From: a virus
Taxonomy: Duplodnaviria; Heunggongvirae; Uroviricota; Caudoviricetes
Direction: 5' to 3' (one strand)
Virus record (IMG/VR): IMGVR_UViG_3300020156_000003
Span: 46,825-110,824 of that record
Length of the DNA: 64,000 bases
How positions within the stretch are numbered: the first letter of the stretch is position 1; every line of letters begins with the position of its first letter. Made by a program: the position numbers and the translations under genes. A model generated the notes under the pieces. That model had not been told where the DNA came from, searched no databases, and worked only from the letters and a program-made list of their open reading frames with translations. Shown piece after piece: positions 1,911 through 61,744 of the stretch.

Positions 1911-1926
1911 AAGTCACAAATGACTT
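1911..1926. promoter_or_regulatory. Operator palindrome
   Basis: AAGTCACAAATGACTT in the intergenic region before the lysis genes. Confidence 0.5.
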
Positions 1927-2022
1927 CCATGTCCGACATTTCTTTGCTAGAATGCCTGGCAAACCTTTGCGAGCGAATGACGAAGGCATCGACATGACAC
2001 TGACAAAATTGAAGGATTTGAA

Positions 2023-11821: not shown

Positions 11822-11836
11822 AAGTCACAAGTGACT
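11822..11836. promoter_or_regulatory. Operator-like palindrome of the TAAGTCA/TGACTT family.
   Basis: AAGTCACAAGTGACT, followed about 21 nt later by TATTAT at about 11859-11864. Confidence 0.55.
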
Positions 11837-11909
11837 ACGAAATCCGCAGCGCGAGCGGTATTATCAGCTTATTGAAAGATTGCGCGAAAGCGTGCGCAGG
11901 GAGGCAACA

Positions 11910-13324: not shown

Positions 13325-14746
13325 ATGGAACTCATCATGAATAGCGATCAGGTATTGGATCTGATCGATAGCGTCGCAGCCACCAGCGGCAAGAACGACA
13401 AGATTTCGATGCTGAAGGCGGTGTCCGGCAGCAACCTGCTGCGCGCCGTGCTGGAGGCAACTTACAACCCGATCGTCAGCTATGGCATTCGCCAGTTCCC
13501 CGACCGTGCTGTCGACGCTACTGGCGATGCCCACTTTTCGGCGCCGACATGGGGCGTGATCGCGGCGCTGCGCGAACGCCAAGTTACCGGCAACGCCGCA
13601 CAAGCGGCGATTCAGCACGAAATGAACACGCTGTCCGTTAAGTCGGCCGAACTGTTCAAGCGCATCATCCTGAAGGACATGCGCGCTGGCTTCTCCGAAG
13701 AAACCGTCAACAAGGTGTGGGGCGGCCTGCTCCCGGAGTTCCCGTATCAGCGCTGCTGCCTGCCCAAAGACGCCAAGCTCGACACCTGGAATTGGGCCGA
13801 AGGCCACATCAGCCAGCAGAAGGCGGACGGCATGTTCGCCAACGTCAATCACGAAGAAGGCGGCCAGGTCTTCATCTTCAGCCGGCAAGGCTCGATGTTC
13901 CCGATGGAGAAATTCGAGGAGCTGGCAACCGTGGTCAAGTTGTCGCTGGCGGCCGGCACGCAGAATCACGGCGAACTCCTGGTCATGCGCGATGGAGCGA
14001 TCCTGGCGCGCGAGATCGGCAACGGCGTGCTGAATAGCGTGCTGAAGGGCGGCGACTTCGCCGAGAACGAGCGTCCGATCTTCATGGTGTGGGATCAAAT
14101 TCCGCTCGATGCCGTGAAGCCGAAAGGCAAGTATGCGGTGCCATATGTGCAGCGCCTCAAGGGGCTGATCGAGCAGTTGCGTGGTGGCGCCAACATCAAC
14201 GTCGTCCAGTTGATCCCGACCAAGATCGTCAAGAGCCTGACCGAAGCGTATCAACACGCGGCAGAGGTCATGCTGGCCGGCGGCGAAGGCACCATCCTGA
14301 AGAACCGCAACGCGCACTGGAAGGACGGCACCAGCAAGGAGCAAGTCAAACTCAAGCTGGAGTTCACGGTCGATCTGGAAGTGCAGGGCGTTGTCCTCGG
14401 TCGCGACAACACCAAGAACGCCGGCCGCGCCGGCAGCCTGAAGTGCGCGACGTCCGACGGCAAGCTCGAAGTCGATGTGGCGATCAAGGGCGAGAAGATG
14501 CGCGACGCAGTCGATGCCAATCCGGACGACTGGATCGGTCGCATCATGCCGGTGACTGCGAACCTTGTGCTGAAACCGTCGGAGAGCAACGAATTGCATT
14601 CCCTGTTCTTGCCTCGTTTCGCTGAAAGCGAATACCGCACCGACAAGACCGTGGCGGACTCGTTGCAGCGCGTGTTCGACCAGGAGGAGGCGGCCAAATT
14701 GGGCGTCGCCATCAAGGACGGCACTGCACTGAAGGCGGCAGCATGA
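13325..14746 (+). CDS. ATP-dependent DNA ligase
   Basis: Motif I QQKADGMF (KxDG), motif IV NHGELLVM and motif V EGTILKN. Confidence 0.8.
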   Translation: MELIMNSDQVLDLIDSVAATSGKNDKISMLKAVSGSNLLRAVLEATYNPIVSYGIRQFPDRAVDATGDAHFSAPTWGVIAALRERQVTGNAAQAAIQHEMNTLSVKSAELFKRIILKDMRAGFSEETVNKVWGGLLPEFPYQRCCLPKDAKLDTWNWAEGHISQQKADGMFANVNHEEGGQVFIFSRQGSMFPMEKFEELATVVKLSLAAGTQNHGELLVMRDGAILAREIGNGVLNSVLKGGDFAENERPIFMVWDQIPLDAVKPKGKYAVPYVQRLKGLIEQLRGGANINVVQLIPTKIVKSLTEAYQHAAEVMLAGGEGTILKNRNAHWKDGTSKEQVKLKLEFTVDLEVQGVVLGRDNTKNAGRAGSLKCATSDGKLEVDVAIKGEKMRDAVDANPDDWIGRIMPVTANLVLKPSESNELHSLFLPRFAESEYRTDKTVADSLQRVFDQEEAAKLGVAIKDGTALKAAA

Positions 14747-17788: not shown

Positions 17789-17837
17789 GCGGCCTGCAAA
17801 GCCGTCTACGCCGGTTCAATTCCGACCCCCGCCTCCA
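17789..17837 (+). other. attP core: the 3' two-thirds of a tRNA-Cys(GCA) gene (anticodon arm to CCA). The 5' half is absent.
   Basis: Anticodon stem GCGGC/GCCGT with loop CUGCAAA. T-loop GGTTCAATTCC. Acceptor 3' strand CCCCGCC followed by discriminator U and CCA. Only about 49 nt of tRNA are present. Confidence 0.7.
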
Positions 17838-17957: not shown

Positions 17958-18024
17958 TATAATGTGCGTGTTGGACGTTGACGCGAGTCGGCGACCTTGT
18001 TCGGCAGCATTGCGGGGAATCAAA

Positions 18025-19191
18025 ATGGCAACAAAAAGACAAACGCCAGGCGGCAAGTGGGAATACATCATCAAGCGCTCCAAGCTCCTGGAGAAGCCGA
18101 TCTACCTGACCTTCGATGACGAGGCCGAGGGTGACGCCTACGTCGCCAAGCTCGAAGCGCTCCTAGACCGCGGCGTGGTGCCGCACGAATACCAAAAGCA
18201 AGGCGAGAAGTACGTGCTGCTGGCCGAGCTGATTGCGGACTACTTGGTGCAGGTGCATGTGTCCGATCCGGACAGGAAAATTCTCAACGTGATCTATGCC
18301 CGCATCGGCAAGACCAGTCTGCGGCTCGTCAATTACGCTTGGGTGGAAGGCTGGATCGGCGACATGAAGACGCAGTTGAATTTGAAGCCAGGTACGATTC
18401 GTCACCACGTCGGCGCGCTCGGGCGCTGCTTCGATTGGGCAAGCCGGCGCAACGTCGTGCCGCTGGTGATCAACCCGATCAGGCAACTGCCAAAGAGCTA
18501 CGCGCAGTACAGCGAGCGCGACGCGCAACTGGCGCGCGCCGTCGACGACGACCATGTGCGCCAGGAGGACGAGGAACGTGACAGGCGTCTCGAAGAAGGG
18601 GAGGAGCAGCGGATCCGGCAGATCCTCGACGGCCACAAGCCTGAAGGCCGGCAGCGGGCAATGGCGCTGCGCTATCAGGGCGCCATCGAGCTGCTGTTCG
18701 ACCTGGCGCTGGAGACGGCGATGCGAATGCGGGAAATGTTCACGCTGACCCTGGATCAAGTCGACCTGGCGCGAAAGACGGTCTTTCTCGACAAGACCAA
18801 GAATGGCGACAAGCGGCAGGTGCCGCTGTCGTCGGTGGCGCTGTCGCGCATTCAGCGCTACATGGAGCAGGTGAGGGCCGCAGAGCGCGGCATGGAGGGG
18901 TTCAGCTTCGAGGGCAAGCAGCTCTTTCCTTGGTGGGATGGCTCGCTTGAGCGGGACGAATTGCGGCGCATTACGGCGCTGTTATCGCGCCAGTACGCGC
19001 GTGTTTTTGAGGCGGCCGGCTGTCACGATCTGCGCTTTCACGACTTGCGCCACGAAGCCACCAGTCGCTTCTTCGAGCGCACGCAGTTGCAGGACTTCGA
19101 GATCATGAAGATCACCGGCCACAGTTCCACACGGATGCTGCGGCGCTATTCCAACCTACGCGGCAGCGTGCTGGCCGACAAGCTCTGGTAG
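18025..19191 (+). CDS. int: Tyrosine recombinase (integrase)
   Basis: C-terminal catalytic motifs LRFHDLRHEATSRFFE...ITGHSSTRMLRRYSNL. Lies adjacent to the attP core. Confidence 0.9.
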   Translation: MATKRQTPGGKWEYIIKRSKLLEKPIYLTFDDEAEGDAYVAKLEALLDRGVVPHEYQKQGEKYVLLAELIADYLVQVHVSDPDRKILNVIYARIGKTSLRLVNYAWVEGWIGDMKTQLNLKPGTIRHHVGALGRCFDWASRRNVVPLVINPIRQLPKSYAQYSERDAQLARAVDDDHVRQEDEERDRRLEEGEEQRIRQILDGHKPEGRQRAMALRYQGAIELLFDLALETAMRMREMFTLTLDQVDLARKTVFLDKTKNGDKRQVPLSSVALSRIQRYMEQVRAAERGMEGFSFEGKQLFPWWDGSLERDELRRITALLSRQYARVFEAAGCHDLRFHDLRHEATSRFFERTQLQDFEIMKITGHSSTRMLRRYSNLRGSVLADKLW

Positions 19192-19491
19192 CTCGTAGGC
19201 GGACAAATCGGCGCGCGGGGTCTTTTCCCTGCCGCGCTTCTTGGGCGATACCATAGACGGCACGCGCGCCGCCGTTTGCTGCAATTCTTCCTCCACGCCC
19301 GCTTTCGCCAGGCGCTCGCGCATCTGGCGCCTGGCTTCCGCGCGCAGGTATTCCGTCAAGTCATCCAGCAGAAATACCCAGGCGCGGCCAATGCGCGCAC
19401 CCGGCAATGCGCCGGAGGCGGCCAGCTTCAAAGCGGTCGATTTATCGACCTTCAAGAATTCGGCGCATTCGTCGATGTCCAGCGTTTTCAT
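19156..19491 (-). CDS. xis: Excisionase or AlpA-family HTH protein.
   Basis: LKVDKSTALKLAASGALPGARIGRAWVF matches the excisionase/AlpA HTH family. GGGAG RBS. Convergent 36 bp overlap with int. Confidence 0.7.
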   Translation of the reverse strand: MKTLDIDECAEFLKVDKSTALKLAASGALPGARIGRAWVFLLDDLTEYLRAEARRQMRERLAKAGVEEELQQTAARVPSMVSPKKRGREKTPRADLSAYELPELVGQHAAA

Positions 19492-19554
19492 GTGACTCCC
19501 TGTTCCAGTGACGGAGTGGATCTTATACGTGGTTGGCGCTGAAAGCAAGTCAGC

Positions 19555-19569
19555 AATGACTGATCCGCA
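19555..19569. promoter_or_regulatory. Operator-like palindrome upstream of xis.
   Basis: AAGTCAGCAATGACT. Confidence 0.5.
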
Positions 19570-19854: not shown

Positions 19855-20313
19855 TCAAAAGTTCTCGGGCTTCAGGGTGTCAATCACGGCCAAGAGCGCG
19901 GCACGCTCGGTATCGTTGCGCAACCGCGGATTGGGCACCTTCGACTGACGGATGCACTCGATGATCTCCACTTCATTTTGCGTCAGCGTGAGCGACGGCG
20001 TAAAGATGATGTCTTGAAGCGCTTCCCAAGTGTCCGGCTCGTATTCTTGCATGACCAGGCGGTACAGGTGCTTCGGATCGACGCCGAGAGCGCGCGCCAT
20101 CGGCCCAACCTTCGACATCGGCAGTTTGGTCTTGCCCTGCTTGATCATCGTGATGATGTTGGGCTTGTTAAAGCCTGCTTCGCGAGCAATCTCCAATTGA
20201 GATTTGCCGCTAAGATCGATTTGCTGGCTGATGTAGTCAGCCACAGTGATGTTGTTGCTGCGTGATTTTCTCGACTTCACGCTCCGTTCTTCGGTAGTGG
20301 ATTCCATAAGCAT
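19855..20313 (-). CDS. XRE-family HTH repressor, CI-like.
   Basis: HTH QLEIAREAGFNKPNIITMIKQGKTKLP. It is divergent from the early operon and lies next to int/xis. GGGAG RBS. Confidence 0.8.
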   Translation of the reverse strand: MLMESTTEERSVKSRKSRSNNITVADYISQQIDLSGKSQLEIAREAGFNKPNIITMIKQGKTKLPMSKVGPMARALGVDPKHLYRLVMQEYEPDTWEALQDIIFTPSLTLTQNEVEIIECIRQSKVPNPRLRNDTERAALLAVIDTLKPENF

Positions 20314-20926: not shown

Positions 20927-20942
20927 AGTCAACAGTGACTTA
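20927..20942. promoter_or_regulatory. Operator palindrome in the 5'UTR of the cobT-like gene.
   Basis: AGTCAACAGTGACTTAACAAGGGAG-N7-ATG. This is near-identical to the site at 51801. Confidence 0.55.
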
Positions 20943-20952
20943 ACAAGGGAGA

Positions 20953-23031
20953 ATGCAGATGGCAATGACCGACCGAATTTTCATCATGCGTGAGGCAATT
21001 GGGAAGCTCACGCAAATGCTCGCAGGCAAAAGTGTGCAAGTTACGCAACGCGGCATCTCTGCTTACGTGCGTGCTGACGCCAAGGGTCGTCCCATCCTGG
21101 TCAACTTGCCCTATATCCCCGACAACGCCACCGACGAACTGCTGGACGCGATCCAGGGCTTCCTCGACCACGAAGTTGCGCACATTCTCTTTACCGACTT
21201 CAATGCGATGGACGAGGCGCAGCGTCACAACGCCGGCGGGATGCTGAACTTGATCGAAGACAGCCGCATCGAGCGCGCAATGGCCGATCGCTTCCAGGGT
21301 TCTGCTGAAAACATGGCCCGCATGGGCAAATTCTTCCTCGACAAGTACACCACGCCGAAGATGAACGAGGCGATCAAGAAAGGCGACAAGCACACGCTGA
21401 CCGGCGTGCTGATGGTGCCGCTGATTCGCGCAATGGCCGGCCAGCAAGTCTTCGCCGAGTTCATGAAGGACAAGATGGAGCACGTCGAGGAGGAATACAA
21501 CCGCATCAAAGACCTGGCGCCGCAGATTGCTGCCGCCTCCAGCACGAAAGACTGCCTGGAGTTGGCGAAGACGATTACGACGCGCTTGCGCGACGGCGTG
21601 CCGAAGCCCGCACCGAAGGACGAGGAAGAAGATCCGGCCGCAGCACCGATGCCGATCCCGATGCCTGGTGGTGGCAGCGGCAAGCCCGCGAACAAGAGCA
21701 AGGGCGCCGGCAAGAACAAGAGCAAGCCCGCACCGAAGGACGAGGAGGAAGAAAAAGACCCGACCGCCGGTGACGAGGAAGATGAGAAGGATCCGGCCGA
21801 CCCGAGCGAGGAAGAAAAAGACCCCACTGCCAGCGGCGACGAGAGCGAGGAAGAAAAAGACCCGAGCGCCCCCTCCGACGAGGATGAAGACGAGGATGTC
21901 GGCGCACCTGGCGACGAGGATGACGAAGGCGACATGTCTAAGGGCACCGCAAGCGACGGCGATGACGGCGAGGGCGGCGACGCGACTGGTAGTGCGCCTT
22001 CGCCCCCGACTGGCGAAGAAACCGAATTGCCTGAAGGCGGCAGCGCGTCGTGGGATGCCATCGACCGTGAAACGGCGAAGGACTACGACGACCTGGCATC
22101 GAACATCATCACCAACACGACTGCCCACGTCGCCTCGCACGCCGATTACCTCGTCTACTCAAAGGATCAGGACATCATCGAGCCGCTGCGTGTCGGTCGC
22201 GAGTACAAGGACTCGATGCTGACCGCCTTGCAGGACAAGGTCGATCACATGGTCGGCCCGCTCCAGAAAGACCTGGAGCGCGCGATCGCCGCGCGCAGCC
22301 TGTCGCAGTGGAATCCGGGCCACCGTTCGGGCCGCCTGAACGCATCGGCGCTGTCGCGCTTGGCGGTCAACGACGATCGCGTGTTCCGACGCAAGACCGA
22401 AGTCACCAGCAAGGATGTGGCGGTCGAACTGCTGATCGATATGTCCGGCTCGATGGACGGCTCCAAGATTCACACCGCGGCGCAGACTGCGTATGCCTTG
22501 TGCAACGTGCTGGAGCGCATCGGCATCCAATGCGAAGCGGTCTGCTTTACCACCGGCATGGGTAATTGCGGCGACCACGCGGCGATGCAGGCGGAGGAGG
22601 CAAAGATCGGGCGCAAGTATTCGCGCTCCGAGCAGCTTTACATGCCGATCCTCAAGAGCTTCAATGAGCGGCTGTCCACTGACGTGAAGAAGCGTTTCGG
22701 TTGGCTGCCCTACACGCAATCCATGCGTAACAACGTCGACGGCGAGTGCGTCGAGATCGCCGGTATGCGGCTGATGGGCCGCAAGGAGAAGGGCAAGATC
22801 CTGATGGTGCTGTCTGACGGCGCACCGAACTGCTACGGCAATACCAGGACGCTCGGTCCGCATCTGAAGAAGGTGGTGGAGAACCTGACGCGCGCCGGTT
22901 TGAACGTGATCGGCATCGGCATCGAGTCCAACGACGTGGAACGCTTCTATCCGAAGCACATGGTTCTGAACAAGGTCGAGGAGCTGCCGCTTGCTGTGAT
23001 GAAGGAGCTGCGCCAGCTCATCCTGAAGTAA
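20953..23031 (+). CDS. CobT-like von Willebrand factor A (vWA) domain protein with an internal acidic repeat region.
   Basis: MIDAS motif DMSGSMDGS (DxSxS). The C-terminal vWA fold is typical of phage CobT-like proteins. It is paired with the downstream AAA+ gene. Confidence 0.85.
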   Translation: MQMAMTDRIFIMREAIGKLTQMLAGKSVQVTQRGISAYVRADAKGRPILVNLPYIPDNATDELLDAIQGFLDHEVAHILFTDFNAMDEAQRHNAGGMLNLIEDSRIERAMADRFQGSAENMARMGKFFLDKYTTPKMNEAIKKGDKHTLTGVLMVPLIRAMAGQQVFAEFMKDKMEHVEEEYNRIKDLAPQIAAASSTKDCLELAKTITTRLRDGVPKPAPKDEEEDPAAAPMPIPMPGGGSGKPANKSKGAGKNKSKPAPKDEEEEKDPTAGDEEDEKDPADPSEEEKDPTASGDESEEEKDPSAPSDEDEDEDVGAPGDEDDEGDMSKGTASDGDDGEGGDATGSAPSPPTGEETELPEGGSASWDAIDRETAKDYDDLASNIITNTTAHVASHADYLVYSKDQDIIEPLRVGREYKDSMLTALQDKVDHMVGPLQKDLERAIAARSLSQWNPGHRSGRLNASALSRLAVNDDRVFRRKTEVTSKDVAVELLIDMSGSMDGSKIHTAAQTAYALCNVLERIGIQCEAVCFTTGMGNCGDHAAMQAEEAKIGRKYSRSEQLYMPILKSFNERLSTDVKKRFGWLPYTQSMRNNVDGECVEIAGMRLMGRKEKGKILMVLSDGAPNCYGNTRTLGPHLKKVVENLTRAGLNVIGIGIESNDVERFYPKHMVLNKVEELPLAVMKELRQLILK
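21601..22039 (+). repeat. Low-complexity acidic tandem repeats (EEEKDP units) within the cobT-like gene.
   Basis: PAPKDEEEDP / KPAPKDEEEEKDPTAGDEEDEKDPADPSEEEKDPTASGDESEEEKDPSAPSDEDEDED. Confidence 0.7.
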
Positions 23032-23051: not shown

Positions 23052-23067
23052 AAGTCACAACTGACTT
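23052..23067. promoter_or_regulatory. Operator palindrome
   Basis: AAGTCACAACTGACTT, followed about 20 nt later by TATCAT. Confidence 0.55.
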
Positions 23068-23161
23068 GCGTTTCCTGCCCGCTGACCGTATCATTCTTTC
23101 TGTCGCAGTAACAAAAACAGTTTTAGTTCATCGGGCAAATGCCCCTTTGTGGAGGATAGAA

Positions 23162-24364
23162 ATGACCGTTTCCAACGACAAGATCACCTGCAAAATCTGC
23201 GGTGCCAAAGAACACATCATCAAGACCCATCTCCAGAAGGATCATCCGGACTGGACGGTCGAGCGCTACCAGGAGCAGTTTCCCGAAGCGCCGCTGATGT
23301 CGGAGTTCGCCAAAGACCTGCTGAAGAAAAAGCAGGCTGAAAAGGCTGCTGCCGAAGGCGGCACGACGATGGCGATGGCTGGCACTGCCGCTGCCGCAGC
23401 GCCCGCCAATGTGGCGACGCTGATCCCGAAAGGCACCGTCATGAAGAAGGCGCTGCACGAAATCTTCGAGCTTGGCAAGGTGAAGGCCGCCATGAGCGCC
23501 AAGGGCGACCCGATCCCGATCTCCGTGATGTCGGCGCATGAGCATCAGGGCATGGTGCCGCCCGTCTCGGACAACTACGTCTACGAGATCGACGAGCTGA
23601 AGAACGTGATCCTGTCGCTCGAACTGAATATCCCTTGCTTGGTTTGGGGCCACAAGGGCGCGGGCAAGTCTGAGTTGCTTGAGCAGGTGGCCGCGCGCAC
23701 GAACCGCCCGATGATTCGCGTCCAGCACACGGTCAACACCGAAGAAAGCCACATCGTCGGTCAGTGGACGGTCAAGGCCGGCGCCACCGAGTTCGAGCTG
23801 GGGCCGCTGCCGCTGGCGATGCTCAATGGCTGGATCTACTGCGCCGACGAATACGACTTCGGTATGCCGTCTGTCCTGGCGGTCTATCAGGCCGTCCTTG
23901 AAGGTAAGTCACTGGTGATTAAAGAGGCTCCGGCGCACCTGCGCGTCATCAAGCCGCACAAGGACTTCCGTTTCGTCGCCACTGGCAATACCAACGGATC
24001 GGGCGACGAGTCGGGCCTCTATCAAGGCACGCTGATCCAGAACAGTGCCAACTACGACCGCTTCGGCATGGTGATCAACAAGAAGTACATGGATAAGCGC
24101 GCCGAGAGCCAGATTCTCCAGAACCACTGCAAGCTGGTACCGGCCGACGCGGACAAGATGGTCGAGTTCGCCAACCTTGTGCGCCAGTCCTACGACGCGG
24201 CGAAGATTTCCGACACGATCTCGCCGCGCACCCTGATCTACGCCAGCAAGATCGGCGTGATGCGCGGCTCCTTCCGCCAGGGCTTGCAACTGTCGTTCAT
24301 CAACAAGCTGTCCAAGATCGACCGCGAAGTCGCGGACGGCCTCGCACAACGCATCTTCGGGTAA
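23162..24364 (+). CDS. CobS-like / MoxR-family AAA+ ATPase
   Basis: Walker A GHKGAGKSEL. AAA+ core similar to phage CobS. The N-terminus has a Cys/His cluster CKICGAKEHIIKTHLQKDH. Confidence 0.85.
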   Translation: MTVSNDKITCKICGAKEHIIKTHLQKDHPDWTVERYQEQFPEAPLMSEFAKDLLKKKQAEKAAAEGGTTMAMAGTAAAAAPANVATLIPKGTVMKKALHEIFELGKVKAAMSAKGDPIPISVMSAHEHQGMVPPVSDNYVYEIDELKNVILSLELNIPCLVWGHKGAGKSELLEQVAARTNRPMIRVQHTVNTEESHIVGQWTVKAGATEFELGPLPLAMLNGWIYCADEYDFGMPSVLAVYQAVLEGKSLVIKEAPAHLRVIKPHKDFRFVATGNTNGSGDESGLYQGTLIQNSANYDRFGMVINKKYMDKRAESQILQNHCKLVPADADKMVEFANLVRQSYDAAKISDTISPRTLIYASKIGVMRGSFRQGLQLSFINKLSKIDREVADGLAQRIFG

Positions 24365-24369: not shown

Positions 24370-25116
24370 ATGCAGCCGGCAATCAGCTTTCAAGAGAATG
24401 TCGGCCTCGTCCACTTGCAGGCGAAGAAAGCCTTCAAGTGGGCGTCAGGCGCGAACACAGGGATGACCTACGAGGACTGTTTTCAGGAAGCCTCACTGGC
24501 ATTCGTGCTGGCGGCGCAGGGTTACGACCCTGACGCCGGCGTCAAATTCAGTGCCTACTACACGCAGGTCGCGTTCAGCCAGTTTCACAAGGCGATCGGT
24601 CGCATGACCGGCGTCAAGCGCTTGAGTCCGGACATGCGCGAGGAGATTGAGGCGCGCAAGGCTGAGAACGAGCGCCGCGCCGCGCAGGCATTGCCACCGC
24701 TGCCGGACATTAACTATTCACTGCCGACCGAGAACTTCTCGACGATGTCGGCGATGGGTGAGGAGGGCGGCGATCCCTTCGAGGCGAGCCTGGCATCGGA
24801 GACGCAGTCGCCCGAGGACATTGTCGCGTTCAACCAGCTATGGCAGCAAGCGACAGCAAACCTGTCGCCCTTGGCAAAGCTGATGGTGGAGTGGCTGCGC
24901 GACCCGCCGCCCGAACTGCTGAAAGAGCTGGACTGCCAGATCGCGTATGCGGAAGAAGCGGCGGCGTGCGGTCGACGAGCCTACGGGATGCGTGACGGCA
25001 TCTCCATCAACAACGTATCGAAGTTCATCGGCATGATCGGCGATGTCAGCAAGCGCGAATTGACGCTGGCTGAAGCCGAGCTGATGGAGGTCGTGAAAAG
25101 GATCGAGGGGGCGTGA
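24370..25116 (+). CDS. Sigma-70 family sigma factor-like protein
   Basis: Region 2 match: YEDCFQEASLAFVLAAQGYDPDAGVKFSAYYTQVAFSQFHKAI aligns with the sigma70 region 2 signature DLIQEGNIGLmkAvdkFDp.rGyrFSTYAtwwIrqaI. Confidence 0.55.
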   Translation: MQPAISFQENVGLVHLQAKKAFKWASGANTGMTYEDCFQEASLAFVLAAQGYDPDAGVKFSAYYTQVAFSQFHKAIGRMTGVKRLSPDMREEIEARKAENERRAAQALPPLPDINYSLPTENFSTMSAMGEEGGDPFEASLASETQSPEDIVAFNQLWQQATANLSPLAKLMVEWLRDPPPELLKELDCQIAYAEEAAACGRRAYGMRDGISINNVSKFIGMIGDVSKRELTLAEAELMEVVKRIEGA

Positions 25117-25790
25117 TGACCACAGCAGAGCAGAAGGCGCCAGGATGCTTCGGCGCCGCTTCGGTATTCAGCATGGACAGCGCGGTGTGCCAGGCGTGCG
25201 TCGCGTTCAAGGAGTGCAGCGATGCATCCATCGCCACGCTCCAACAGATCAAGGCAACCATCGACGTGCGCGACCTGCTGGCAAAGCACACGTCGGCGCG
25301 TATGAAGCATGAGGCTCGCCTGGCGCCCAAGCAGACGCCCGCGCCGACCGCCGTCAGCCCGCTGCCGGTGGTGCAGCCCGCGCCTGTCACGCAGCCGGTC
25401 GAGCGCAAGACCACGATGGCGAAGGTCATCTTCGAGGTCAGCGCCGACCAACAGAACGCCATTGCGCGCATAAGCCAGGCGAACAAGAAGGCCGGCGATC
25501 AGGCGACCGTCTTGTGCAAGATGAATCGCATCAATGAAATGCGCTCCATGCTCCCGCAAGGGCAGAACCCCTTCGCTACGACAGGGCCAGGTTTCTTGCG
25601 CGTCGCTTGTGACCACCTGATCAATGGCGGCTTCACGAAAGCGTCGCTGCGCAAATCCCTCATGGAGACGTTCGGCTGGACGGAGGCGACCGCTGCGTCG
25701 CACGTATCCATCGCCGTCGCAATTCTCGGCGGGTTCAAGATTGCCGCGGGCGCCGACGGGAAGATCGTTTTGCATCCTGACTTGGTTTGA
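25113..25790 (+). CDS. Hypothetical protein with an N-terminal Cys cluster.
   Basis: CFG...CQACVAFKEC. Coupled to the sigma-like gene. Confidence 0.5.
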   Translation: MMTTAEQKAPGCFGAASVFSMDSAVCQACVAFKECSDASIATLQQIKATIDVRDLLAKHTSARMKHEARLAPKQTPAPTAVSPLPVVQPAPVTQPVERKTTMAKVIFEVSADQQNAIARISQANKKAGDQATVLCKMNRINEMRSMLPQGQNPFATTGPGFLRVACDHLINGGFTKASLRKSLMETFGWTEATAASHVSIAVAILGGFKIAAGADGKIVLHPDLV

Positions 25791-25825: not shown

Positions 25826-26071
25826 ATGAAAGGTGGCACTTACGCAGAAGCCCTGAAGGCAGGCTTCACCGAGCAGCAAGCGGCTTTCTTCAGCCGCTTG
25901 GGCGGCGAAACGCGCGACGAGGCAGTCGACGAGATCAAGCGCCAGGAAAGACTGGCCGCGCGCGACCGCGCCTTCAAGCGCAAGCAGGCAATCAGCAAGG
26001 CGGTCAATGACGCAAGTTGGCTCATTTTCGGTGCGCTGGTCGTCGCCACTGGCTACATGGTGTTCGCATGA
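25826..26071 (+). CDS. Small C-terminally membrane-anchored protein
   Basis: AGAGAGG RBS. C-terminal hydrophobic helix. Confidence 0.4.
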   Translation: MKGGTYAEALKAGFTEQQAAFFSRLGGETRDEAVDEIKRQERLAARDRAFKRKQAISKAVNDASWLIFGALVVATGYMVFA

Positions 26072-29000
26072 GCATCAACCACGCATTGTCCGTTCGCTCG
26101 GACTTCTCCATCGGACAATCGCTGCTCCAGGTGGATCACATCATCGACGAAGCCAAGAAGCACGGCTACGAGTCGGTGGCACTGGTCGATGATATGTCCA
26201 TCCACAACATGGTCGACTTCTCCAACCGCTGCAAGAAGGCGGGCATCAAGCCCATTATCGGCTGTCGTCTGCGCGTGGTCGATGACCCGACCTACCGCAA
26301 GCCGGCAAAAGCGTCCGGCGAGAAGGAAAAGCCGAACCCGCTCGTCATGATCAAGGCGTATGCCGTTGACGAACGCGGCATCTCCAGCCTGCTCAAGCTC
26401 TTGTCCAAAGCCAACAGCAAGGACTACTTCTATTACCACAGTCGCGTTGGCTGGGCCGACGTGATGGAGTTGAAGGGTGTGACCCTCACCACCGGCGACT
26501 TCTACGGCCTGTTTAGCCACCCGAGCTACGTCGATCGTCTCATGGCACTCAAGGGCTGGCATGGCGACAACCTATATGTGGAACTGACGCCGATCGACAC
26601 GCCGCTGTTCGATACGCTGAATGCCAAAGCGCTGGCCGCCATCGAGAAGTTTGACATTCCGCCTGTCGTGTCCTACCCGTTCATGTACCGCGACAACGCC
26701 GATGCATCGACGCTCGAAGTGCTGAACGCGATCGCCAACCAGATGAAGATGTCCACGCCGTACCGGCCCAAGCAGTTCATCAAGGACTTCGGCTTCAAGC
26801 CGCCGGTGGCGCTGGCGCAGAAGGTGGTGCAGGCGGCCGGTCGCGTTGCCAAATGGAACGGGGTCAAGAACCCCGACGCCTGGAAGCAGGGCGTGCTGAA
26901 CATCGAAAAGCTGGCCGCGGCTTGCGCCTACGAGTTCAAGAAGCAGCCGGTGTCGCTGCCGCAGATGGCAGCGAACGAGTTCGAGGCGCTCGGCAAGAAG
27001 TGCATTGAGGGCTGGAAGCGGCGCTTCAGCCAGCCCGTATTGGGCCACAAGCCGACCACCGCGGAGATTGCGGTCTACCAGGAGCGCCTGAAGTATGAAT
27101 TGGGCGTGCTGAAGAAGATGGGCTTTGCCGGCTACTTCCTGCTGGTCGAGGATCTGGTGATGTGGGCCAAGACCAACGGCATCATCGTCGGCCCCGGCCG
27201 CGGTTCCGTCGGCGGCTCGCTGGTGGCGTACCTGATCGGCATCACCGACGTGGACCCGATCCGGTTCAATCTGCTGTTTGAGCGCTTCATCAACCCCGAG
27301 CGCCTGGACTTGCCCGATGCCGATCTGGACTTCATGTCCACCCGCCGCCACGAAGTCATCCAGTACCTCGCGCAGAAATACGGTGCCGACCGCGTCGCAG
27401 GCATTTCCAACTTCGCCACGCTGGCGTCGGCGTCTGCCCTGCGTGATACCGGCCGCGTGTACGAGCTGGACAATCTGACGCTGTCGGCGACCAAGCTGGT
27501 GCCGAAAGAGCACGGCCAGTCCTTTACGCTGACCGATGCCGCCAAAGCGGTGCCGGAGCTGGAGAAGTTCCGCGACGAGCATGAGGAAGTCTGGAATCAC
27601 GCCCTGAAGCTCGAAGGCGTCATGCGCAGCTTCGGTAAGCACGCTGCCGGCGTGGTCGTGGGCGGTGAGCCGCTGGTCAATCGCGCCGTCATTGAGTCGC
27701 GTGCCAGCGACGAAGAATCCGGCGTGCCGGTGGTCAATTGGGACAAGCGCGTGGTCGAGGATTGGGGCCTGGTCAAGATGGACATTCTGGGCCTGTCCAC
27801 GCTCGACGTGCTGGAGATCGCCCGACAATACATCAAGGCGCGTCATGGCAAGGATGTCAATTACACGCTCTTGCCGCTCGAAGAACCGGACATCATGGAC
27901 GCGTTCGCCCGCGGCGACACCACCGGCGTGTTCCAGTTCGAGTCGCCTGGCATGAAAAAGCTGCTGCGCGATCTCGCCAAGGGCGGCAGGCTGACCTTCG
28001 AGGACATCACCGCGGCGACCGCGCTGTACCGACCTGGCCCGATGGACTCCGGCCTGATGGATGACTTCGTGCAAATCAAGCAGGGCGCCAAGAATCCGGA
28101 ATACGAGCATCCCAACATGGAAGCGGCCCTGAAGGACACCTACAGCGTCATCGTCTATCAGGAGCAGGTCATGCAGCTTGCCGTCGACCTGGCCGGCTTT
28201 ACTCGCGCCGAAGCGGATCATCTGCGCAAAGCGATGGGTAAGAAGGACAAGGACAAGATGGCGGAGATGCGCGACAAGTGGGTCAAGGGCTGCCAGTCGC
28301 ACTCCGGCATGAGTGAGAGCGCCGCCGGTGACCTGTTCGACAAGATCGAAGCCTTCGCCGGCTATGGTTTCAACCGCAGCCACGCCGTCGAGTATTCGGT
28401 CATCTCCTACTGGACGATGTGGGTGCGCGTGCGCTACCCCGCCGAATACTTCGCCGCCTGTCTGTCGATCGTGGACGATGACGAGAAGATGCTCGGCTTG
28501 GTCAACGACGCCAGGGAATGTGGTATCGAAGTGCTGCCGCCCGACATCAACCTGTCCACCGACCGATTCACCATTCCGGACGACAAGCATCTGCTGGCGC
28601 CGTTCTCCAAGGTCAAGGGCATTTCCGAGAACACCGCCCGCCGCATCGTCGAGCTACGCGAGAACAACCGCTCCTGGAAGGTCGGCAAGGTCAAGAAGAA
28701 GCGCGACGGCACGACCGAGGACGTGTGGGTGCTGGATGACACGTCGCCAGTCAAGGGCCGCTTCGACACGGACGAGGAGTTCGTGATGGCGGCGGCGCAG
28801 CCTGGCTCGAAGGTCAACAGCCGCGTGGTCGAGAACCTGCGTCTGGTCGGGGCACTGGCGTCGGTCGAGAAGGGCGCCAAGCCGGCGCGCGACCTGTCGC
28901 GGCGCAAGGATCAGGTGGAACTGCTCCCTGGCCTGATCCTGGACAGCGTGAAGGCGGATCGCACCACCGATGTCACCGAGCCGTTCGTCAAAGCTAAGAT

Positions 29001-29535
29001 CATTCACATCGTCCAGGACTACCGCTCCTGCGATGCGTGCGACCTGGCAGGGCAGCCGCATCCGGCGATCCGGATGAAATCGACCGTCAAGTTCATGGTC
29101 GTCCACGACTGCCCGAACTGGCAGGAGGAGAAGACAAACAAGCTGATCGAGGGCGACTCGGCGGATTACCTGAAAGCTGCGATCAAAGGCGCTGGCCTGT
29201 CGCCCGCTGACGGGTATTACACGACGCTGGTGAAAGCCAAAAAAGACGGGAAGTTCTTGAGCAACGGGCAGATCAATGGCTGCGCGCAGTTCTTGAACCG
29301 CGAGCTGGAAGTGATCAAGCCGGCAGTGATCGTGGCGCTGGGCAGTTCGTCAATCAAGCGCTTCCTGCCTGGTCACAAGGGCGGCACTGCCGAGCTGGTG
29401 GGCAAAGCGATCTATGACGCCAAGCTCGACGCAACCATCGTCTGCGGCATCAATCCGCAGCAGATTTACCACGACGCAGCAAAGGCAGAGATCCTGCAAG
29501 CCGTGTTCGAGAAGGTCGCCGAGATTTTGTCGTAG
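26068..29535 (+). CDS. dnaE: DNA polymerase III alpha (DnaE-type) with a C-terminal UDG-fold (family 4-like) domain.
   Basis: N-terminal PHP domain. Catalytic stretch GPGRGSVGGSLVAYLIGITDVDPIRFNLLFERFINPER...LPDADLDF. The C-terminal roughly 175 aa (about 29000-29532) show UDG-family-4-like topology but with variant motifs, VHDCPNWQE in place of GEAPG and GINPQQI in place of HPSPLN. Confidence 0.9.
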   Translation: MSINHALSVRSDFSIGQSLLQVDHIIDEAKKHGYESVALVDDMSIHNMVDFSNRCKKAGIKPIIGCRLRVVDDPTYRKPAKASGEKEKPNPLVMIKAYAVDERGISSLLKLLSKANSKDYFYYHSRVGWADVMELKGVTLTTGDFYGLFSHPSYVDRLMALKGWHGDNLYVELTPIDTPLFDTLNAKALAAIEKFDIPPVVSYPFMYRDNADASTLEVLNAIANQMKMSTPYRPKQFIKDFGFKPPVALAQKVVQAAGRVAKWNGVKNPDAWKQGVLNIEKLAAACAYEFKKQPVSLPQMAANEFEALGKKCIEGWKRRFSQPVLGHKPTTAEIAVYQERLKYELGVLKKMGFAGYFLLVEDLVMWAKTNGIIVGPGRGSVGGSLVAYLIGITDVDPIRFNLLFERFINPERLDLPDADLDFMSTRRHEVIQYLAQKYGADRVAGISNFATLASASALRDTGRVYELDNLTLSATKLVPKEHGQSFTLTDAAKAVPELEKFRDEHEEVWNHALKLEGVMRSFGKHAAGVVVGGEPLVNRAVIESRASDEESGVPVVNWDKRVVEDWGLVKMDILGLSTLDVLEIARQYIKARHGKDVNYTLLPLEEPDIMDAFARGDTTGVFQFESPGMKKLLRDLAKGGRLTFEDITAATALYRPGPMDSGLMDDFVQIKQGAKNPEYEHPNMEAALKDTYSVIVYQEQVMQLAVDLAGFTRAEADHLRKAMGKKDKDKMAEMRDKWVKGCQSHSGMSESAAGDLFDKIEAFAGYGFNRSHAVEYSVISYWTMWVRVRYPAEYFAACLSIVDDDEKMLGLVNDARECGIEVLPPDINLSTDRFTIPDDKHLLAPFSKVKGISENTARRIVELRENNRSWKVGKVKKKRDGTTEDVWVLDDTSPVKGRFDTDEEFVMAAAQPGSKVNSRVVENLRLVGALASVEKGAKPARDLSRRKDQVELLPGLILDSVKADRTTDVTEPFVKAKIIHIVQDYRSCDACDLAGQPHPAIRMKSTVKFMVVHDCPNWQEEKTNKLIEGDSADYLKAAIKGAGLSPADGYYTTLVKAKKDGKFLSNGQINGCAQFLNRELEVIKPAVIVALGSSSIKRFLPGHKGGTAELVGKAIYDAKLDATIVCGINPQQIYHDAAKAEILQAVFEKVAEILS

Positions 29536-29540: not shown

Positions 29541-29554
29541 AGTCACGGGTGACT
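29541..29554. promoter_or_regulatory. Operator palindrome
   Basis: AATCAGTCACGGGTGACTAT. Confidence 0.5.
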
Positions 29555-29621
29555 ATGTTATCCGTGCTGCGAAACGTAGTATGAGCATTCAACCGAGAAA
29601 CACTCTTTGAAGGAGAAAAAC

Positions 29622-36893: not shown

Positions 36894-37153
36894 CTTGGGC
36901 ATTGATCGCGCAAAGCGCCATTGACGGGCCGTGCGGCGGGATTCTCGCCGCTTCTGCCGACATCGAGACTCACATCATCGCCGAAGACAGCACGATGGGC
37001 CTGTTCATCTTTCCGGATAGCTGGATCGACCCTGGCTTCTACCTGTGGGAAGGCACGATGGAGGCGGCCCTGACCGGCGAGGGCGGCAAGCATACTGTGG
37101 TCGCACCCGAGGACGTGCAGCGCTGGATTGACCGCAGCGGGGAGGAAGCATGA
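36890..37153 (+). CDS. Hypothetical protein
   Basis: ATGA coupling with the upstream gene. Confidence 0.4.
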   Translation: MTWALIAQSAIDGPCGGILAASADIETHIIAEDSTMGLFIFPDSWIDPGFYLWEGTMEAALTGEGGKHTVVAPEDVQRWIDRSGEEA

Positions 37154-37590
37154 GCGACTTCATCGTCAAGGCGATCGTCGACCAGCTTGCCGACGCCGGC
37201 TGCCCGTTGACCGCGCAACAGGTCAACGCGCTTGTTGATGTGCGCAAGAAGTCGATGGCAAAGGCACGCGAGGAGATCAAGAACGCCGTGCGGGCGTCGC
37301 TTCTCAAGGACGGCATCGATACCTCTGACATCAAGCGAGCGGCGCGTGAAATGACTCAGGATACGGTCAATAACACGCTTAAGGAGCGCAACATCGAGCA
37401 GATGGTGGACGCACAAATCCAGAAAGCAATCGCTGCCGCTTTCTCGCCGGCGACAGACATCAAACTCATGGTGAAAAGCGCCATCGAGCGTGAGGCGGCG
37501 AAGGTAGCGCACGAATACATCAAGACCAACATGAAGGTGGATGTTTCGATCAACGAAACGGGCCACTACGTACAAGGGGGAACCTTCTAA
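37150..37590 (+). CDS. Hypothetical protein
   Basis: ORF with a coupled start. Confidence 0.45.
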   Translation: MSDFIVKAIVDQLADAGCPLTAQQVNALVDVRKKSMAKAREEIKNAVRASLLKDGIDTSDIKRAAREMTQDTVNNTLKERNIEQMVDAQIQKAIAAAFSPATDIKLMVKSAIEREAAKVAHEYIKTNMKVDVSINETGHYVQGGTF

Positions 37591-48940: not shown

Positions 48941-48976
48941 GTCAGGCTAAGTCATCACTGACTTGTAAGTCCTGAC
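48941..48976. promoter_or_regulatory. Nested palindromes
   Basis: GTCAGG-cta-AAGTCATCACTGACTT-gtaagt-CCTGAC. Followed by TAATAT and then GTGACTTAT. Confidence 0.55.
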
Positions 48977-49038
48977 GAACATCAGTAATATGTGACTTAT
49001 CGACATGCGCACGGTTGCGCACATTTAGGGAGAGCCAA

Positions 49039-61697: not shown

Positions 61698-61713
61698 AAG
61701 TCATCGGTGACTT
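61698..61713. promoter_or_regulatory. Operator palindrome
   Basis: AAGTCATCGGTGACTT, followed by TGACTATCC and then CTGACTGATAAT. Confidence 0.55.
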
Positions 61714-61744
61714 GACTATCCTTCACCGCTGACTGATAATTCCC

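What the first reader, a model, noticed from the sequence alone, without database searches (positions are those of the whole stretch)
24370..25790. Phage-encoded sigma-70-family protein immediately downstream of the CobT/CobS pair, followed by a Cys-rich partner
The ORF at 24370-25116 has a convincing sigma region 2, DCFQEASLAFVLAAQGYDPDAGVKFSAYYTQVAFSQFHKAI. A possible region-4-like C-terminus is also present.

The coupled downstream ORF (25113-25790) begins with a Cys cluster, CFG...CQACVAFKEC. Speculatively, it could be an anti-sigma or partner protein.

A phage sigma factor would explain non-canonical promoter elements elsewhere in the genome. Examples are the palindrome followed about 20 nt later by TATTAT or TATCAT at 11822 and 23052.
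Basis: partly seen in the sequence, partly recalled or inferred. Interest (0 to 1): 0.65.

Follow-up and report, generated by a model that had tools for sequence, protein, structure and literature searches.

The report
Divergent phage sigma-like factor in replication operon
A temperate ~110-kb phage encodes a real but divergent sigma-70-type protein inside its DNA-replication operon; the cysteine-rich neighbour is a metal-binding winged-helix protein rather than an anti-sigma factor, and the palindromic "promoter elements" track a separate XRE-type regulator, so this is a new member of a known kind of phage gene.

Summary

The family is large (about 1,500 clusters). In every context sampled it sits in a CobT-CobS-sigma-B-PolIII-alpha cassette of ~110-kb siphophages of Alpha-, Beta- and Gammaproteobacteria. 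GenBank already annotates the Rhizobium phage members as sigma factors.

ORF B (25113-25790) has an invariant C-x13-C-x2-C-x5-C site and a confident winged-helix domain. It is not an anti-sigma fold, and it persists next to the polymerase in Nickievirus, which has no sigma gene.

The palindrome promoters are real: AGTCA-N4-TGACT occurs 13 times, and seven copies lie exactly 22 nt upstream of TAnnAT. Across four genomes the palindrome follows an XRE-type HTH protein (19855-20313), not the sigma.

Verdict: a new member of a known kind, of moderate interest. Its target promoters are still unknown.

The parts
24370..25116 (+). Sigma-like protein A (248 aa). It has a sigma domain 2 (aa ~8-80), a subfamily-specific helix (87-105), an acidic linker (106-147) and a family-specific five-helix C-terminal domain (148-247) that ends in a helix-turn-helix.
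25113..25790 (+). Protein B (224/225 aa). It has an N-terminal Cys4 site (C12, C26, C29, C35 = C-x13-C-x2-C-x5-C), a Pro-rich linker, and a C-terminal helical plus winged-helix domain.
23053..23094 (+). Promoter that drives CobS, sigma, B and downstream genes. It comprises the palindrome AGTCACAACTGACT (23053-23066), TCCT (23073-23076) and the -10-like TATCAT (23089-23094).
   Evidence: No plus-strand terminator is predicted between CobT and the end of PolIII-alpha. The orthologous intergenic region in L015 has the same palindrome-N22-TAAGAT arrangement.
20953..23031 (+). CobT-like VWA protein, the first gene of the conserved cassette.
   Evidence: Pfam CobT_C scores 1.9e-39. Synteny is conserved in L002, L004, L011, L012, L014 and L015.
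23162..24364 (+). CobS-like AAA+ (MoxR-type) ATPase with an N-terminal Ros/MucR-like zinc finger. It lies directly upstream of the sigma gene.
   Evidence: Pfam AAA_5 scores 2e-17, CbbQ_C scores 3e-6, and ROS_MUCR scores 25.2 bits against a cutoff of 25.4. It matches phrog_249 at 4e-93.
26068..29535 (+). DNA polymerase III alpha with a fused C-terminal UDG-like domain, the last conserved gene of the cassette.
   Evidence: Pfam DNA_pol3_alpha scores 3e-81. PHP, finger, HHH_6 and UDG domains also match.
19855..20313 (-). XRE-type HTH protein (152 aa), the best candidate for the factor that binds the AGTCA-N4-TGACT palindromes.
   Evidence: It matches phrog_8 'transcriptional regulator' at 4e-8. 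HTH_19 and HTH_3 are sub-threshold. Homologs occur in RHEph10 (gp041, 38.5% identity, 2e-24) and L015 (48%), but none in the complete Nickievirus or BUCTxx99 genomes. That distribution matches the palindrome's.
11823..11864 (+).
1912..1953 (+). Class-i promoter (palindrome-N22-TAGAAT).
29541..29582 (+). Class-i promoter (palindrome-N22-TAGTAT), downstream of PolIII-alpha.
48950..48991 (+). Class-i promoter (palindrome-N22-TAATAT).
61699..61740 (+). Class-i promoter (palindrome-N22-GATAAT).
19520..19561 (-). Class-i promoter on the minus strand (palindrome-N22-TAAGAT), upstream of the HTH_17 excisionase-like gene (19156-19491).
20927..20940 (.). Palindrome copy between a TACAAT -10-like hexamer and the CobT ribosome-binding site, in an operator-type position. 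Similar copies start at 35803 and 51802.

Best explanation
ORF 24370-25116 encodes a divergent sigma-70-family protein.

Shown:
- It has a well-conserved sigma domain 2. The core-binding D-x-x-Q-E motif of region 2.2 and the K-F-S-(A/T)-Y motif of region 2.3 are kept. The W433/W434 pair of sigma-70 is not.
- It is co-transcribed with CobS, protein B and PolIII-alpha from a palindrome-type promoter at 23053.

Inferred:
- It binds host core RNA polymerase through domain 2.
- It directs the polymerase to a subset of phage promoters, most likely middle or late ones, which this window does not reveal.
- Its C-terminal five-helix domain, which ends in a helix-turn-helix, takes the place of sigma-4.

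The downstream protein B is a Cys4 metal-binding (Zn or Fe-S) winged-helix protein. It is a core gene of the replication cassette, not a dedicated anti-sigma factor.

The AGTCA-N4-TGACT palindromes are operators of a dimeric XRE-type regulator (19855-20313). In seven promoters the palindrome is centred at -41.5, the geometry used by lambda CI at PRM and by class II activators. In other promoters it overlaps or follows a consensus TATAAT.
For: Sigma domain 2:
- Pfam Sigma70_r2 matches, as do 26 of 26 and 39 of 39 family members.
- TIGR02937 matches 38 of 39 members.
- phrog_351 'sigma factor' matches at 4.6e-14.
- The family profile hits solved SigA chains at 3e-10, with an alignment running to the 'LSP' start of region 4.

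Conservation: the family has 1,515 cluster representatives, and both the N- and C-terminal domains are conserved.

Cassette synteny holds in every context sampled.

Operon structure.

Protein B. B occurs without the sigma in Nickievirus.

Palindrome statistics and geometry.

A protein site rather than a hairpin: the two arms vary independently in RHEph10.

The palindrome tracks the XRE homolog and not the sigma.
Against: - No region 4 is detectable by any sequence method. The window protein is below the TIGR02937 cutoff, at 28 bits against 42.9.
- The tryptophan pair used by sigma-70 for melting is absent (sequence; alignment).
- No promoter class could be assigned to the sigma. The late genes lie outside the window, and word-enrichment scans found no second motif.
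- The gene always lies in a replication cassette, which could point to a role other than late-gene switching.
- The XRE assignment rests on a phyletic pattern of four genomes plus partial loci, and on sub-threshold HTH matches.
- L002 has the palindrome, but no XRE homolog appears in the 12 kb sampled.
- The asymmetric TCCk element at about -28 is unexplained.
Confidence: 0.6

Rival explanations
1. Two-component promoter recognition. Sigma-like A supplies core binding and -10 reading. The Cys4 winged-helix protein B is its obligatory partner, either supplying or modulating upstream DNA contact, or acting as a metal- or redox-sensing co-factor docked on A's C-terminal domain. This would resemble T4 gp55/gp33, B. 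subtilis SigO-RsoA, or WhiB bound to sigma-4.
For: - A lacks a recognisable sigma-4.
- A and B are adjacent and translationally coupled in every sigma-bearing genome sampled, from Alpha- to Gammaproteobacteria phages.
- B has a DNA-binding fold. Its C-x2-C-x5-C spacing matches that of the sigma-4-binding WhiB-like proteins (PMC6282962).
- Class-i promoters have an unexplained asymmetric TCCk element 12 nt upstream of the -10.
Against: - B is retained, next to PolIII-alpha, in Nickievirus, which has no sigma homolog anywhere in its 112 kb.
- The whole cassette is syntenic, and B is packed as tightly against PolIII-alpha as against A, so adjacency carries little information.
- B lacks the Wbl G[V/I]WGG motif.
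- No complex prediction could be run.
Confidence: 0.15
2. A is a sigma whose task is tied to replication rather than to late-gene expression. It might transcribe across or near the phage origin to prime or activate replication, as with transcriptional activation of ori-lambda or R-loop priming at T4 origins. That would explain why the gene is locked into the CobT-CobS-B-PolIII-alpha cassette.
For: All contexts sampled, down to about 21-25% identity, place the gene between CobS and B/PolIII-alpha. It is expressed from a middle-type promoter together with replication genes.
Against: Gene order in these phages is highly conserved overall, so position may be inherited rather than functional. Nickievirus replicates with the same cassette minus the sigma. 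No origin was identified.
Confidence: 0.1
3. A is not an initiation factor. It is a sigma-2-domain decoy or modulator that occupies the sigma-binding site on host core polymerase, shutting off or biasing host transcription without recognising promoters itself.
For: The region 2.2 core-binding motif is conserved, while region 4 is undetectable and the W433/W434 melting pair is missing.
Against: - The K-F-S-T-Y region 2.3 motif, including the Y430 equivalent, is nearly invariant.
- The C-terminal domain is conserved across about 1,500 clusters and ends in an HTH in register with sigma-4. That conservation would be unnecessary for a decoy.
Confidence: 0.1
4. B is an anti-sigma factor for A, and the palindrome-plus-TATTAT elements are A-dependent promoters.
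For: The genes are adjacent, B is Cys-rich, and the class-i promoters lack a -35 hexamer.
Against: - B has a winged-helix fold and no HxxxCxxC motif, and it occurs without A.
- The palindrome is symmetric and occupies several positions relative to -10 elements.
- The palindrome is absent from sigma-bearing BUCTxx99 and from the sampled 12.7-kb L004 locus, and follows the XRE homolog instead.
Confidence: 0.05

Closest known systems
Sigma-like genes annotated in Rhizobium phages (RHEph10 gp045, RHph_Y2_11, RHph_N1_10, RHph_X66, V1VFA-S, B1VFA) and the unannotated homologs in Stenotrophomonas phages BUCTxx99 and ANB28
   Same: They belong to the same protein family (A1 profile 1.8e-14 and 8e-9; phrog_3741 and phrog_351). 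They sit in the same CobT-CobS-sigma-B-PolIII-alpha cassette in ~110-120-kb siphophages.
   Different: Identity is only about 24%. The window's subfamily has an extra helix at aa ~87-115. None has been studied experimentally: the 'sigma factor' label in GenBank rests on region 2 similarity alone, and PHROGs lists the family (phrog_3741) as unknown function.
Group 3/4 alternative sigma-70-family factors (FliA/WhiG, SigB/F/G, ECF) and phage sigmas such as SPO1 gp28 and gp34
   Same: The size (200-250 aa) and the two-domain layout with a linker are alike. Sigma domain 2 superimposes at 1.8-1.9 A. The best curated model is the TIGR02937 superfamily. A role in phage temporal switching is inferred.
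   Different: Region 4 cannot be recognised by Pfam, NCBIfam subfamily models, PDB sequence search or hhalign. The C-terminal domain carries a conserved inserted helix (PPxxLxxE...) between the 'LSP' helix and the terminal HTH.
T4 late system (gp55 sigma-2-like factor, gp33 co-activator, gp45 clamp)
   Same: Both involve a phage-encoded truncated or divergent sigma without a canonical sigma-4, and both are genetically linked to replication functions. The comparison is from my own knowledge.
WhiB-like (Wbl) [4Fe-4S] proteins that bind sigma-A region 4
   Same: B has four invariant cysteines whose last three are spaced C-x2-C-x5-C, as in WhiB1 C37/C40/C46 (PMC6282962). It is encoded next to a sigma gene.
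   Different: B lacks the G[V/I]WGG motif. At 225 aa with a winged-helix domain it is larger than the 81-139 aa of Wbl proteins. Its host is proteobacterial, whereas Wbl proteins are exclusive to Actinobacteria and their phages. The same cysteine spacing also occurs in unrelated Fe-S DNA enzymes (own knowledge).
Lambda CI at OR2/PRM and class II (CRP/FNR-type) activation; genome-wide repressor sites ('stoperators') of mycobacteriophage L5
   Same: The 14-bp (5-4-5) palindrome is centred at -41.5 in seven promoters that lack a -35 hexamer. The candidate binder is an XRE-type HTH protein divergently placed beside the lysogeny module. There are many copies in short intergenic gaps across the genome: 16 in this window and 40 in RHEph10.
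   Different: Binding has not been shown. The same site also lies downstream of -10 elements and in front of ribosome-binding sites. L5 stoperators are asymmetric. The comparison systems are from my own knowledge.

Membership tests
Sigma-70 family (for A) | Region 2 (core binding 2.1/2.2 and -10 recognition/melting 2.3/2.4), Pfam Sigma70_r2 | tested here: met
Sigma-70 family (for A) | Region 4 helix-turn-helix (-35 recognition), Pfam Sigma70_r4 or r4_2 | tested here: inconclusive
   0 of 26 and 0 of 39 members match at E<=1. The C-terminal profile finds no sigma chain in PDB. AF2 predicts a helical domain ending in two helices of HTH type.
Sigma-70 family (for A) | Score above the curated cutoff of the superfamily model TIGR02937 | tested here: not met
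   The window protein scores 28 bits against a cutoff of 42.9, although 38 of 39 relatives match at E<=0.01.
Sigma-70 family (for A) | Aromatic melting residues of region 2.3 (Y430, W433, W434 in E. coli numbering; own knowledge) | tested here: inconclusive
   The Y430 equivalent (Y63) is invariant. W433/W434 align with Q66/V67. Many alternative sigmas also lack the tryptophan pair.
Sigma-70 family (for A) | Binds core RNA polymerase and confers promoter-specific initiation | not testable with these tools
   This needs biochemistry or genetics.
Anti-sigma factors (zinc-binding ZAS / anti-sigma domain) (for B) | Anti-sigma domain helical bundle with an H-x3-C-x2-C zinc motif | tested here: not met
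   B has D22-x3-C26-x2-C29 with no His. The confident part of the model is a winged helix. No Pfam anti-sigma family matches.
Anti-sigma factors (for B) | Occurs together with its cognate sigma | tested here: not met
   The complete Nickievirus phiK7B1 genome has B (1e-29) but no sigma homolog (best 12 bits).
WhiB-like (Wbl) proteins (for B) | Four invariant Cys with C-x2-C-x5-C | tested here: met
   C12, C26, C29 and C35 are invariant in all homologs, including RHEph10, BUCTxx99 and Nickievirus. The motif is as described in PMC6282962.
WhiB-like (Wbl) proteins (for B) | G[V/I]WGG motif after the last Cys; 81-139 aa; actinobacterial | tested here: not met
   B has no such motif in its sequence or alignment. 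It is 225 aa with an extra winged-helix domain. Relatives occur in Proteobacteria phages.
Winged-helix DNA-binding proteins (for B, C-terminal domain) | Three-helix bundle plus beta-hairpin wing | tested here: met
XRE/CI-type regulator with palindromic operators (for 19855-20313 and the palindrome) | HTH_3-type DNA-binding domain | tested here: inconclusive
   HTH_19 scores 20.5 bits and HTH_3 19.7 bits, both below cutoff. phrog_8 'transcriptional regulator' matches at 4e-8.
XRE/CI-type regulator with palindromic operators | Regulator and operator co-occur | tested here: met
   The window, RHEph10 and L015 have both. The complete BUCTxx99 and Nickievirus genomes have neither. L002 is unresolved because only part of it was sampled.
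XRE/CI-type regulator with palindromic operators | The protein binds the site | not testable with these tools
   This needs EMSA, ChIP or footprinting.

The most novel reading that the evidence does not exclude
The sigma-like protein has replaced sigma-4 with a family-specific domain and reads a non-canonical promoter class: TCCk at about -28, 12 nt upstream of TAnnAT. The invariant Cys4 winged-helix protein B acts as a metal- or redox-dependent co-factor docked on that domain. The pair would be a proteobacterial-phage counterpart of WhiB:sigma-4 or T4 gp55/gp33, built into the replication cassette so that this transcription is tied to DNA replication. Nickievirus would be a lineage that lost the sigma half.
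Probability: 0.1. Interest if true: 0.75.

Novelty: new member of a known kind. Interest (0 to 1): 0.4.

Why it matters
Phage-encoded sigma factors are a classic way of reprogramming host RNA polymerase, but few have been studied outside Bacillus and T4-like phages.

This family is large, at about 1,500 clusters at 50% identity. It is found in ~110-kb siphophages of three proteobacterial classes and always sits in the same replication cassette. It has no recognisable sigma-4, and PHROGs lists it as unknown function.

Showing what it recognises would add a new specificity class, and possibly a new C-terminal DNA- or partner-binding module, to the sigma-70 family. It would also improve annotation of many phage and prophage genomes.

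A by-product of this analysis is directly testable. A 14-bp palindrome regulon, with 16 sites here and 40 in RHEph10, appears to belong to an XRE-type regulator. Its exact -41.5 geometry offers a ready entry point into the temporal or lysogenic control of these phages.

Tried and rejected
- Close DNA relatives among cultured phages: megablast found none.
All were negative or insignificant. A weak 'Win' (9def_A) hit at E 0.02-0.15 was not pursued.
- B as an anti-sigma factor: rejected on fold, motif and phyletic grounds.
- B as the palindrome binder: its recognition helix (TAASH...) is nearly identical in L004, which lacks the palindrome, and differs in RHEph10, which has it. BUCTxx99 and Nickievirus have B but no palindromes.
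- Sigma as the palindrome reader: rejected because of the site's symmetry, its variable position, and the sigma-bearing but palindrome-free BUCTxx99.
- Palindrome as an RNA or DNA hairpin: in RHEph10 the two arms vary independently (3 GG, 7 AA, 9 mixed), with no covariation.
- Palindrome copy inside CobS (23907): a coding coincidence conserved as GKSLVIKE.
- Search for a second, sigma-specific motif by whole-genome word enrichment in the window, RHEph10 and Nickievirus: only codon-bias words and palindrome words emerged. TCCK-N12-TAnnAT is not enriched in the other genomes.
- Comparison by eye of terminase-upstream regions in RHEph10, BUCTxx99 and Nickievirus: no shared late-promoter motif.
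- Defence-system models (PADLOC): nothing meaningful.
- AFDB50 fold search: not available. BFVD returned only two uncharacterised homologs of B.
- Literature searches: no experimental work on this family or on Nickievirus or RHEph10 transcription.
- The late-gene region of this phage lies outside the window. It could not be reached, because contig look-ups are limited to proteins encoded in the window or returned by the homolog searches.
Full report
**1. What is there**

The window is part of a temperate siphophage of about 110 kb. It contains:
- a replication and nucleotide-metabolism module: DnaB-like helicase 7181-8638, primase 10493-11806, ligase 13325-14746, PolIII-alpha 26068-29535, gp32-like SSB, 5'-3' exonuclease, RecA, SbcCD 35829-39533 and RNR 42672-45158;
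- an integrase (17962-19191);
- an HTH_17 excisionase-like gene (19156-19491, minus strand);
- an XRE-type HTH gene (19855-20313, minus strand).

The identical sigma protein lies on a 110,838-bp metagenomic contig. Relatives occur on contigs of 97-115 kb and in Undibacterium, Massilia and Herbaspirillum assemblies. This points to a Burkholderiales host. No cultured phage is close at the DNA level.

**2. The observation**

The ORFs, the quoted peptide, the Cys cluster and the two promoter examples are all present as described.
- The sigma ORF starts 5 nt after the CobS stop codon, behind an AAGGA ribosome-binding site.
- The ATG of ORF B shares one base with the sigma stop codon (GGGGCGTGATGACC).
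- No plus-strand terminator is predicted between CobT and the end of PolIII-alpha.

The sigma gene therefore has no promoter of its own. It is transcribed from the promoter at 23053, probably with read-through from the CobT promoter region.

**3. Is protein A a sigma factor?**

Region 2 is solid.
- Pfam Sigma70_r2 is just over threshold for the window protein (25 bits against 24). All 26 close and all 39 divergent relatives match it, best 1e-13.
- The family profile finds solved cyanobacterial SigA chains at 3.3e-10. That alignment runs from region 2.1 to the 'LSP' that opens region 4.
D36, Q39 and E40 fall on D403, Q406 and E407. K59-F60-S61-A62-Y63 falls on K426-Y430.
- NCBIfam's superfamily model TIGR02937 matches 38 of 39 relatives. 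The window protein scores below its cutoff, and no curated subfamily fits.

Region 4 is not demonstrable.
- No member matches Sigma70_r4 or r4_2.
- The C-terminal profile (aa 143-248) finds no sigma chain in PDB.
- The predicted C-terminal domain has five helices (148-162, 167-177, 181-199, 213-223, 228-247).
- Relative to sigma-4, it carries a conserved inserted helix (PPxxLxxE...) between the 'LSPLA' helix and the terminal pair.

I therefore file A under the sigma-70 family on its domain 2 only. I treat the C-terminal domain as a family-specific module that probably stands in for sigma-4.

**4. How widespread, and in what context?**

An exhaustive profile search finds 1,515 cluster representatives at E<=1e-3 and 350 at E<=1e-10. 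Most are 200-225 aa, and both domains match. The window's subfamily has an extra helix at about aa 87-115. All 39 sampled members also match phrog_3741, which PHROGs lists as 'unknown function'.

Cultured carriers are Rhizobium phages (RHEph10 gp045 and others), already annotated 'RNA polymerase sigma factor', and Stenotrophomonas phages BUCTxx99 and ANB28, annotated 'hypothetical'.

In every context I could read, the order is CobT, CobS, sigma, B, PolIII-alpha. These contexts were L002, L004, RHEph10, BUCTxx99, L014 and L015, reaching down to about 21-25% identity.

The related Nickievirus phages (Pseudomonas) have CobT-like, CobS, B and PolIII-alpha with no gene in between. A profile scan of the complete phiK7B1 genome finds no sigma homolog at all (best 12 bits).

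**5. Protein B**

- B matches phrog_3616 (unknown function) at 6e-51.
- Across homologs as distant as RHEph10 gp046, the BUCTxx99 'recombinase' and the Nickievirus protein, four cysteines are invariant with exact spacing C-x13-C-x2-C-x5-C.
- B is not a ZAS-type anti-sigma factor, since it has no H-x3-C-x2-C motif and no anti-sigma domain fold. It is not tied to the sigma, as Nickievirus shows.
- Its last three cysteines are spaced as in WhiB-like [4Fe-4S] proteins, which bind sigma region 4. However, it lacks their universal G[V/I]WGG motif, is twice their size, and occurs outside Actinobacteria (PMC6282962).
- Gene packing does not single out the sigma as B's partner. B is as tightly joined to PolIII-alpha as to the sigma gene: a 3-nt gap in Nickievirus, overlaps in L002 and L014, and a 2-nt gap in BUCTxx99.

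My best reading is that B is a metal-binding DNA-binding accessory protein of the replication cassette. A role as sigma partner remains possible, and I put it at about 15%.

**6. The 'non-canonical promoters'**

- AGTCA-N4-TGACT is by far the most over-represented palindrome in the window: 13 perfect copies against 0.03 expected from composition, and 27 matches at up to 3 mismatches against 1.7 in shuffles. All 13 perfect copies are intergenic.
- In seven copies a TAnnAT hexamer lies exactly 22 nt downstream, always co-directional with the next gene. These start at 1912, 11823, 23053, 29541, 48950 and 61699 on the plus strand, and at 19561 on the minus strand. About 0.14 would be expected at any one spacing.
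- That spacing centres the palindrome at -41.5. These promoters have no -35 hexamer.
- Other copies directly abut or follow a consensus TATAAT (35803, 41771, 42612 and 51802, plus degenerate copies near 20530, 30678 and 45300).
- Others lie just before a ribosome-binding site (20927, 35803, 51802, 60401).

Symmetry and variable placement are what a dimeric regulator's operator looks like, not a sigma's -35 element. A 22-nt spacer is also outside the sigma-70-family range (own knowledge).

**7. Who reads the palindrome?**

The motif is conserved in very distant relatives.
- L015 has AAGTCATAAATGACTT-N22-TAAGAT in the orthologous CobT-CobS spacer.
- L014 has AAGTCAGAATTGACTT in the same spacer.
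- RHEph10 has 17 copies within one mismatch, and 40 under the degenerate consensus A(G/A)T(C/A)A-N4-T(G/T)A(C/T)T. Some lie in front of late genes.
- In RHEph10 the G/A choice in the two arms is independent (3 GG, 7 AA, 9 mixed). This argues for a protein site rather than a hairpin.

The complete Nickievirus genome has no copies and no dominant palindrome of any kind.

I asked which window proteins have homologs in RHEph10 but not in Nickievirus. The answer was five proteins: the sigma (24% identity), two enzymes (ASCH, HD), part of a phosphoesterase, and the XRE-type HTH protein at 19855-20313 (38.5% identity, 2e-24). In both the window and RHEph10 the XRE-type gene lies just upstream of CobT. 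The XRE homolog is also present in L015 at 48% identity.

The decisive comparison is the complete BUCTxx99 genome. It has the sigma and B, but no XRE homolog and no palindromes. The palindrome therefore tracks the XRE-type protein, not A or B.

This is a phyletic inference from four genomes plus partial loci. L002 has the motif, but the 12 kb sampled contain no XRE homolog. The HTH assignment itself is sub-threshold in Pfam.

The -41.5 geometry is that of lambda CI at PRM and of class II activators (own knowledge). The genome-wide scatter in short intergenic gaps recalls mycobacteriophage 'stoperators'. I cannot tell here whether the protein activates, represses or does both.

**8. What remains unexplained**

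- The seven class-i promoters, together with the L002 and L015 orthologs, share an asymmetric TCC(G/T) at spacer positions 7-10 (7 of 9). That is about -28, or 12 nt upstream of the -10 hexamer. They also share a GGATA just 5' of the palindrome.
- A symmetric operator does not account for this. It could be the upstream element read by whichever holoenzyme uses these promoters, and that holoenzyme could contain protein A.
- I found no cross-genome support for that idea. TCCK-N12-TAnnAT is not enriched in RHEph10, BUCTxx99 or Nickievirus.
- The late and structural genes of this phage lie outside the window and could not be retrieved. No sigma-specific late promoter could be sought directly, and word-enrichment scans and comparison of terminase-upstream regions gave nothing.

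**9. Verdict**

- The sigma call is right for region 2, unproven for region 4, and not new. Family members are already labelled as sigma factors in GenBank, although none has been studied and PHROGs lists the family as unknown.
- The 'anti-sigma partner' idea is not supported.
- The 'sigma-specific palindromic promoter' idea is contradicted by the four-genome comparison.
- This is a new member of a known kind, of moderate interest.
- Its more unusual aspects are three: a conserved non-sigma-4 C-terminal domain, strict residence in a CobST/PolIII replication cassette next to an invariant Cys4 winged-helix protein, and an unexplained -28 promoter element. These leave about a 10% chance of something more novel.

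Noticed in passing
window 19855-20313 (-), plus 13 perfect palindromes starting at 1912, 11823, 19548, 20927, 23053, 29541, 35803, 41771, 42612, 48950, 51802, 52868 and 61699: A genome-wide regulon of AGTCA-N4-TGACT sites. Its presence across genomes follows an XRE-type HTH protein encoded beside the integrase module. There are 40 related sites in Rhizobium phage RHEph10 and none in BUCTxx99 or Nickievirus.
   Followed up: yes
window 1932-1935, 11843-11846, 23073-23076, 29561-29564, 48970-48973; L015 near 3755: An asymmetric TCC(G/T) element sits 12 nt upstream of the -10 hexamer in 7 of 9 palindrome-N22-TAnnAT promoters, and GGATA lies 5' of the palindrome. No regulator identified here explains either.
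   Followed up: partly
window ~23180-23320 (N-terminus of CobS, 23162-24364): The CobS-like AAA+ ATPase carries an N-terminal Ros/MucR-like C2H2 zinc finger (CKICGAKEHIIKTHLQKDH). Pfam ROS_MUCR scores 25.2 bits against a cutoff of 25.4. The finger is also present in the Nickievirus CobS.
   Followed up: no
window ~29113-29470 (C-terminus of PolIII-alpha, 26068-29535): A uracil-DNA-glycosylase-superfamily domain is fused to the C-terminus of the phage PolIII-alpha. The fusion is conserved in L004 and RHEph10. In L002 it is split into two genes with a small ORF between them.
   Followed up: no
window ~17813-17837: A sequence like the 3' end of a tRNA (GGTTCAATTCCGACCCCCGCCTCCA) lies upstream of the integrase gene and is probably the attP core for integration into a host tRNA gene. 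ARAGORN finds no complete tRNA in the window.
   Followed up: partly
window 1-1654: This is the 3' part of a low-GC gene (49% against about 60% elsewhere). It is built of repeated leucine-rich-repeat-like units (F.sMF..C.sL...p.f.T). It is probably a receptor-binding or tail-fibre protein acquired horizontally.
   Followed up: no
window 25826-26071: A small 81-aa ORF with a C-terminal hydrophobic helix is wedged between B and PolIII-alpha, overlapping both. Small ORFs occupy the same position in RHEph10 (gp047) and L015.
   Followed up: no
window 23907-23920; L015 4535; L002 4412: A palindrome-like AGTCACTGGTGATT lies inside CobS and is conserved in distant relatives because it encodes GKSLVIKE. 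It is a coding coincidence that inflates motif counts.
   Followed up: yes
L009 31870-32814 (Nickievirus phiK7B1_098); window 59406-60368: A second Nickievirus protein has a C-terminus that matches the B-family winged helix (5.5e-10). Its window homolog is 59406-60368 (34% identity), so the B-type winged helix may occur in a second phage protein.
   Followed up: partly
L016-L018 (RHEph10): 473, 2750, 13523, 112700: In the RHEph10 late region the palindrome is extended asymmetrically (GTCA(A/G)TCAATATTGA(T/C)TTACCATTG). It is often followed by a terminator-like hairpin before the next gene, an arrangement reminiscent of stoperators.
   Followed up: partly
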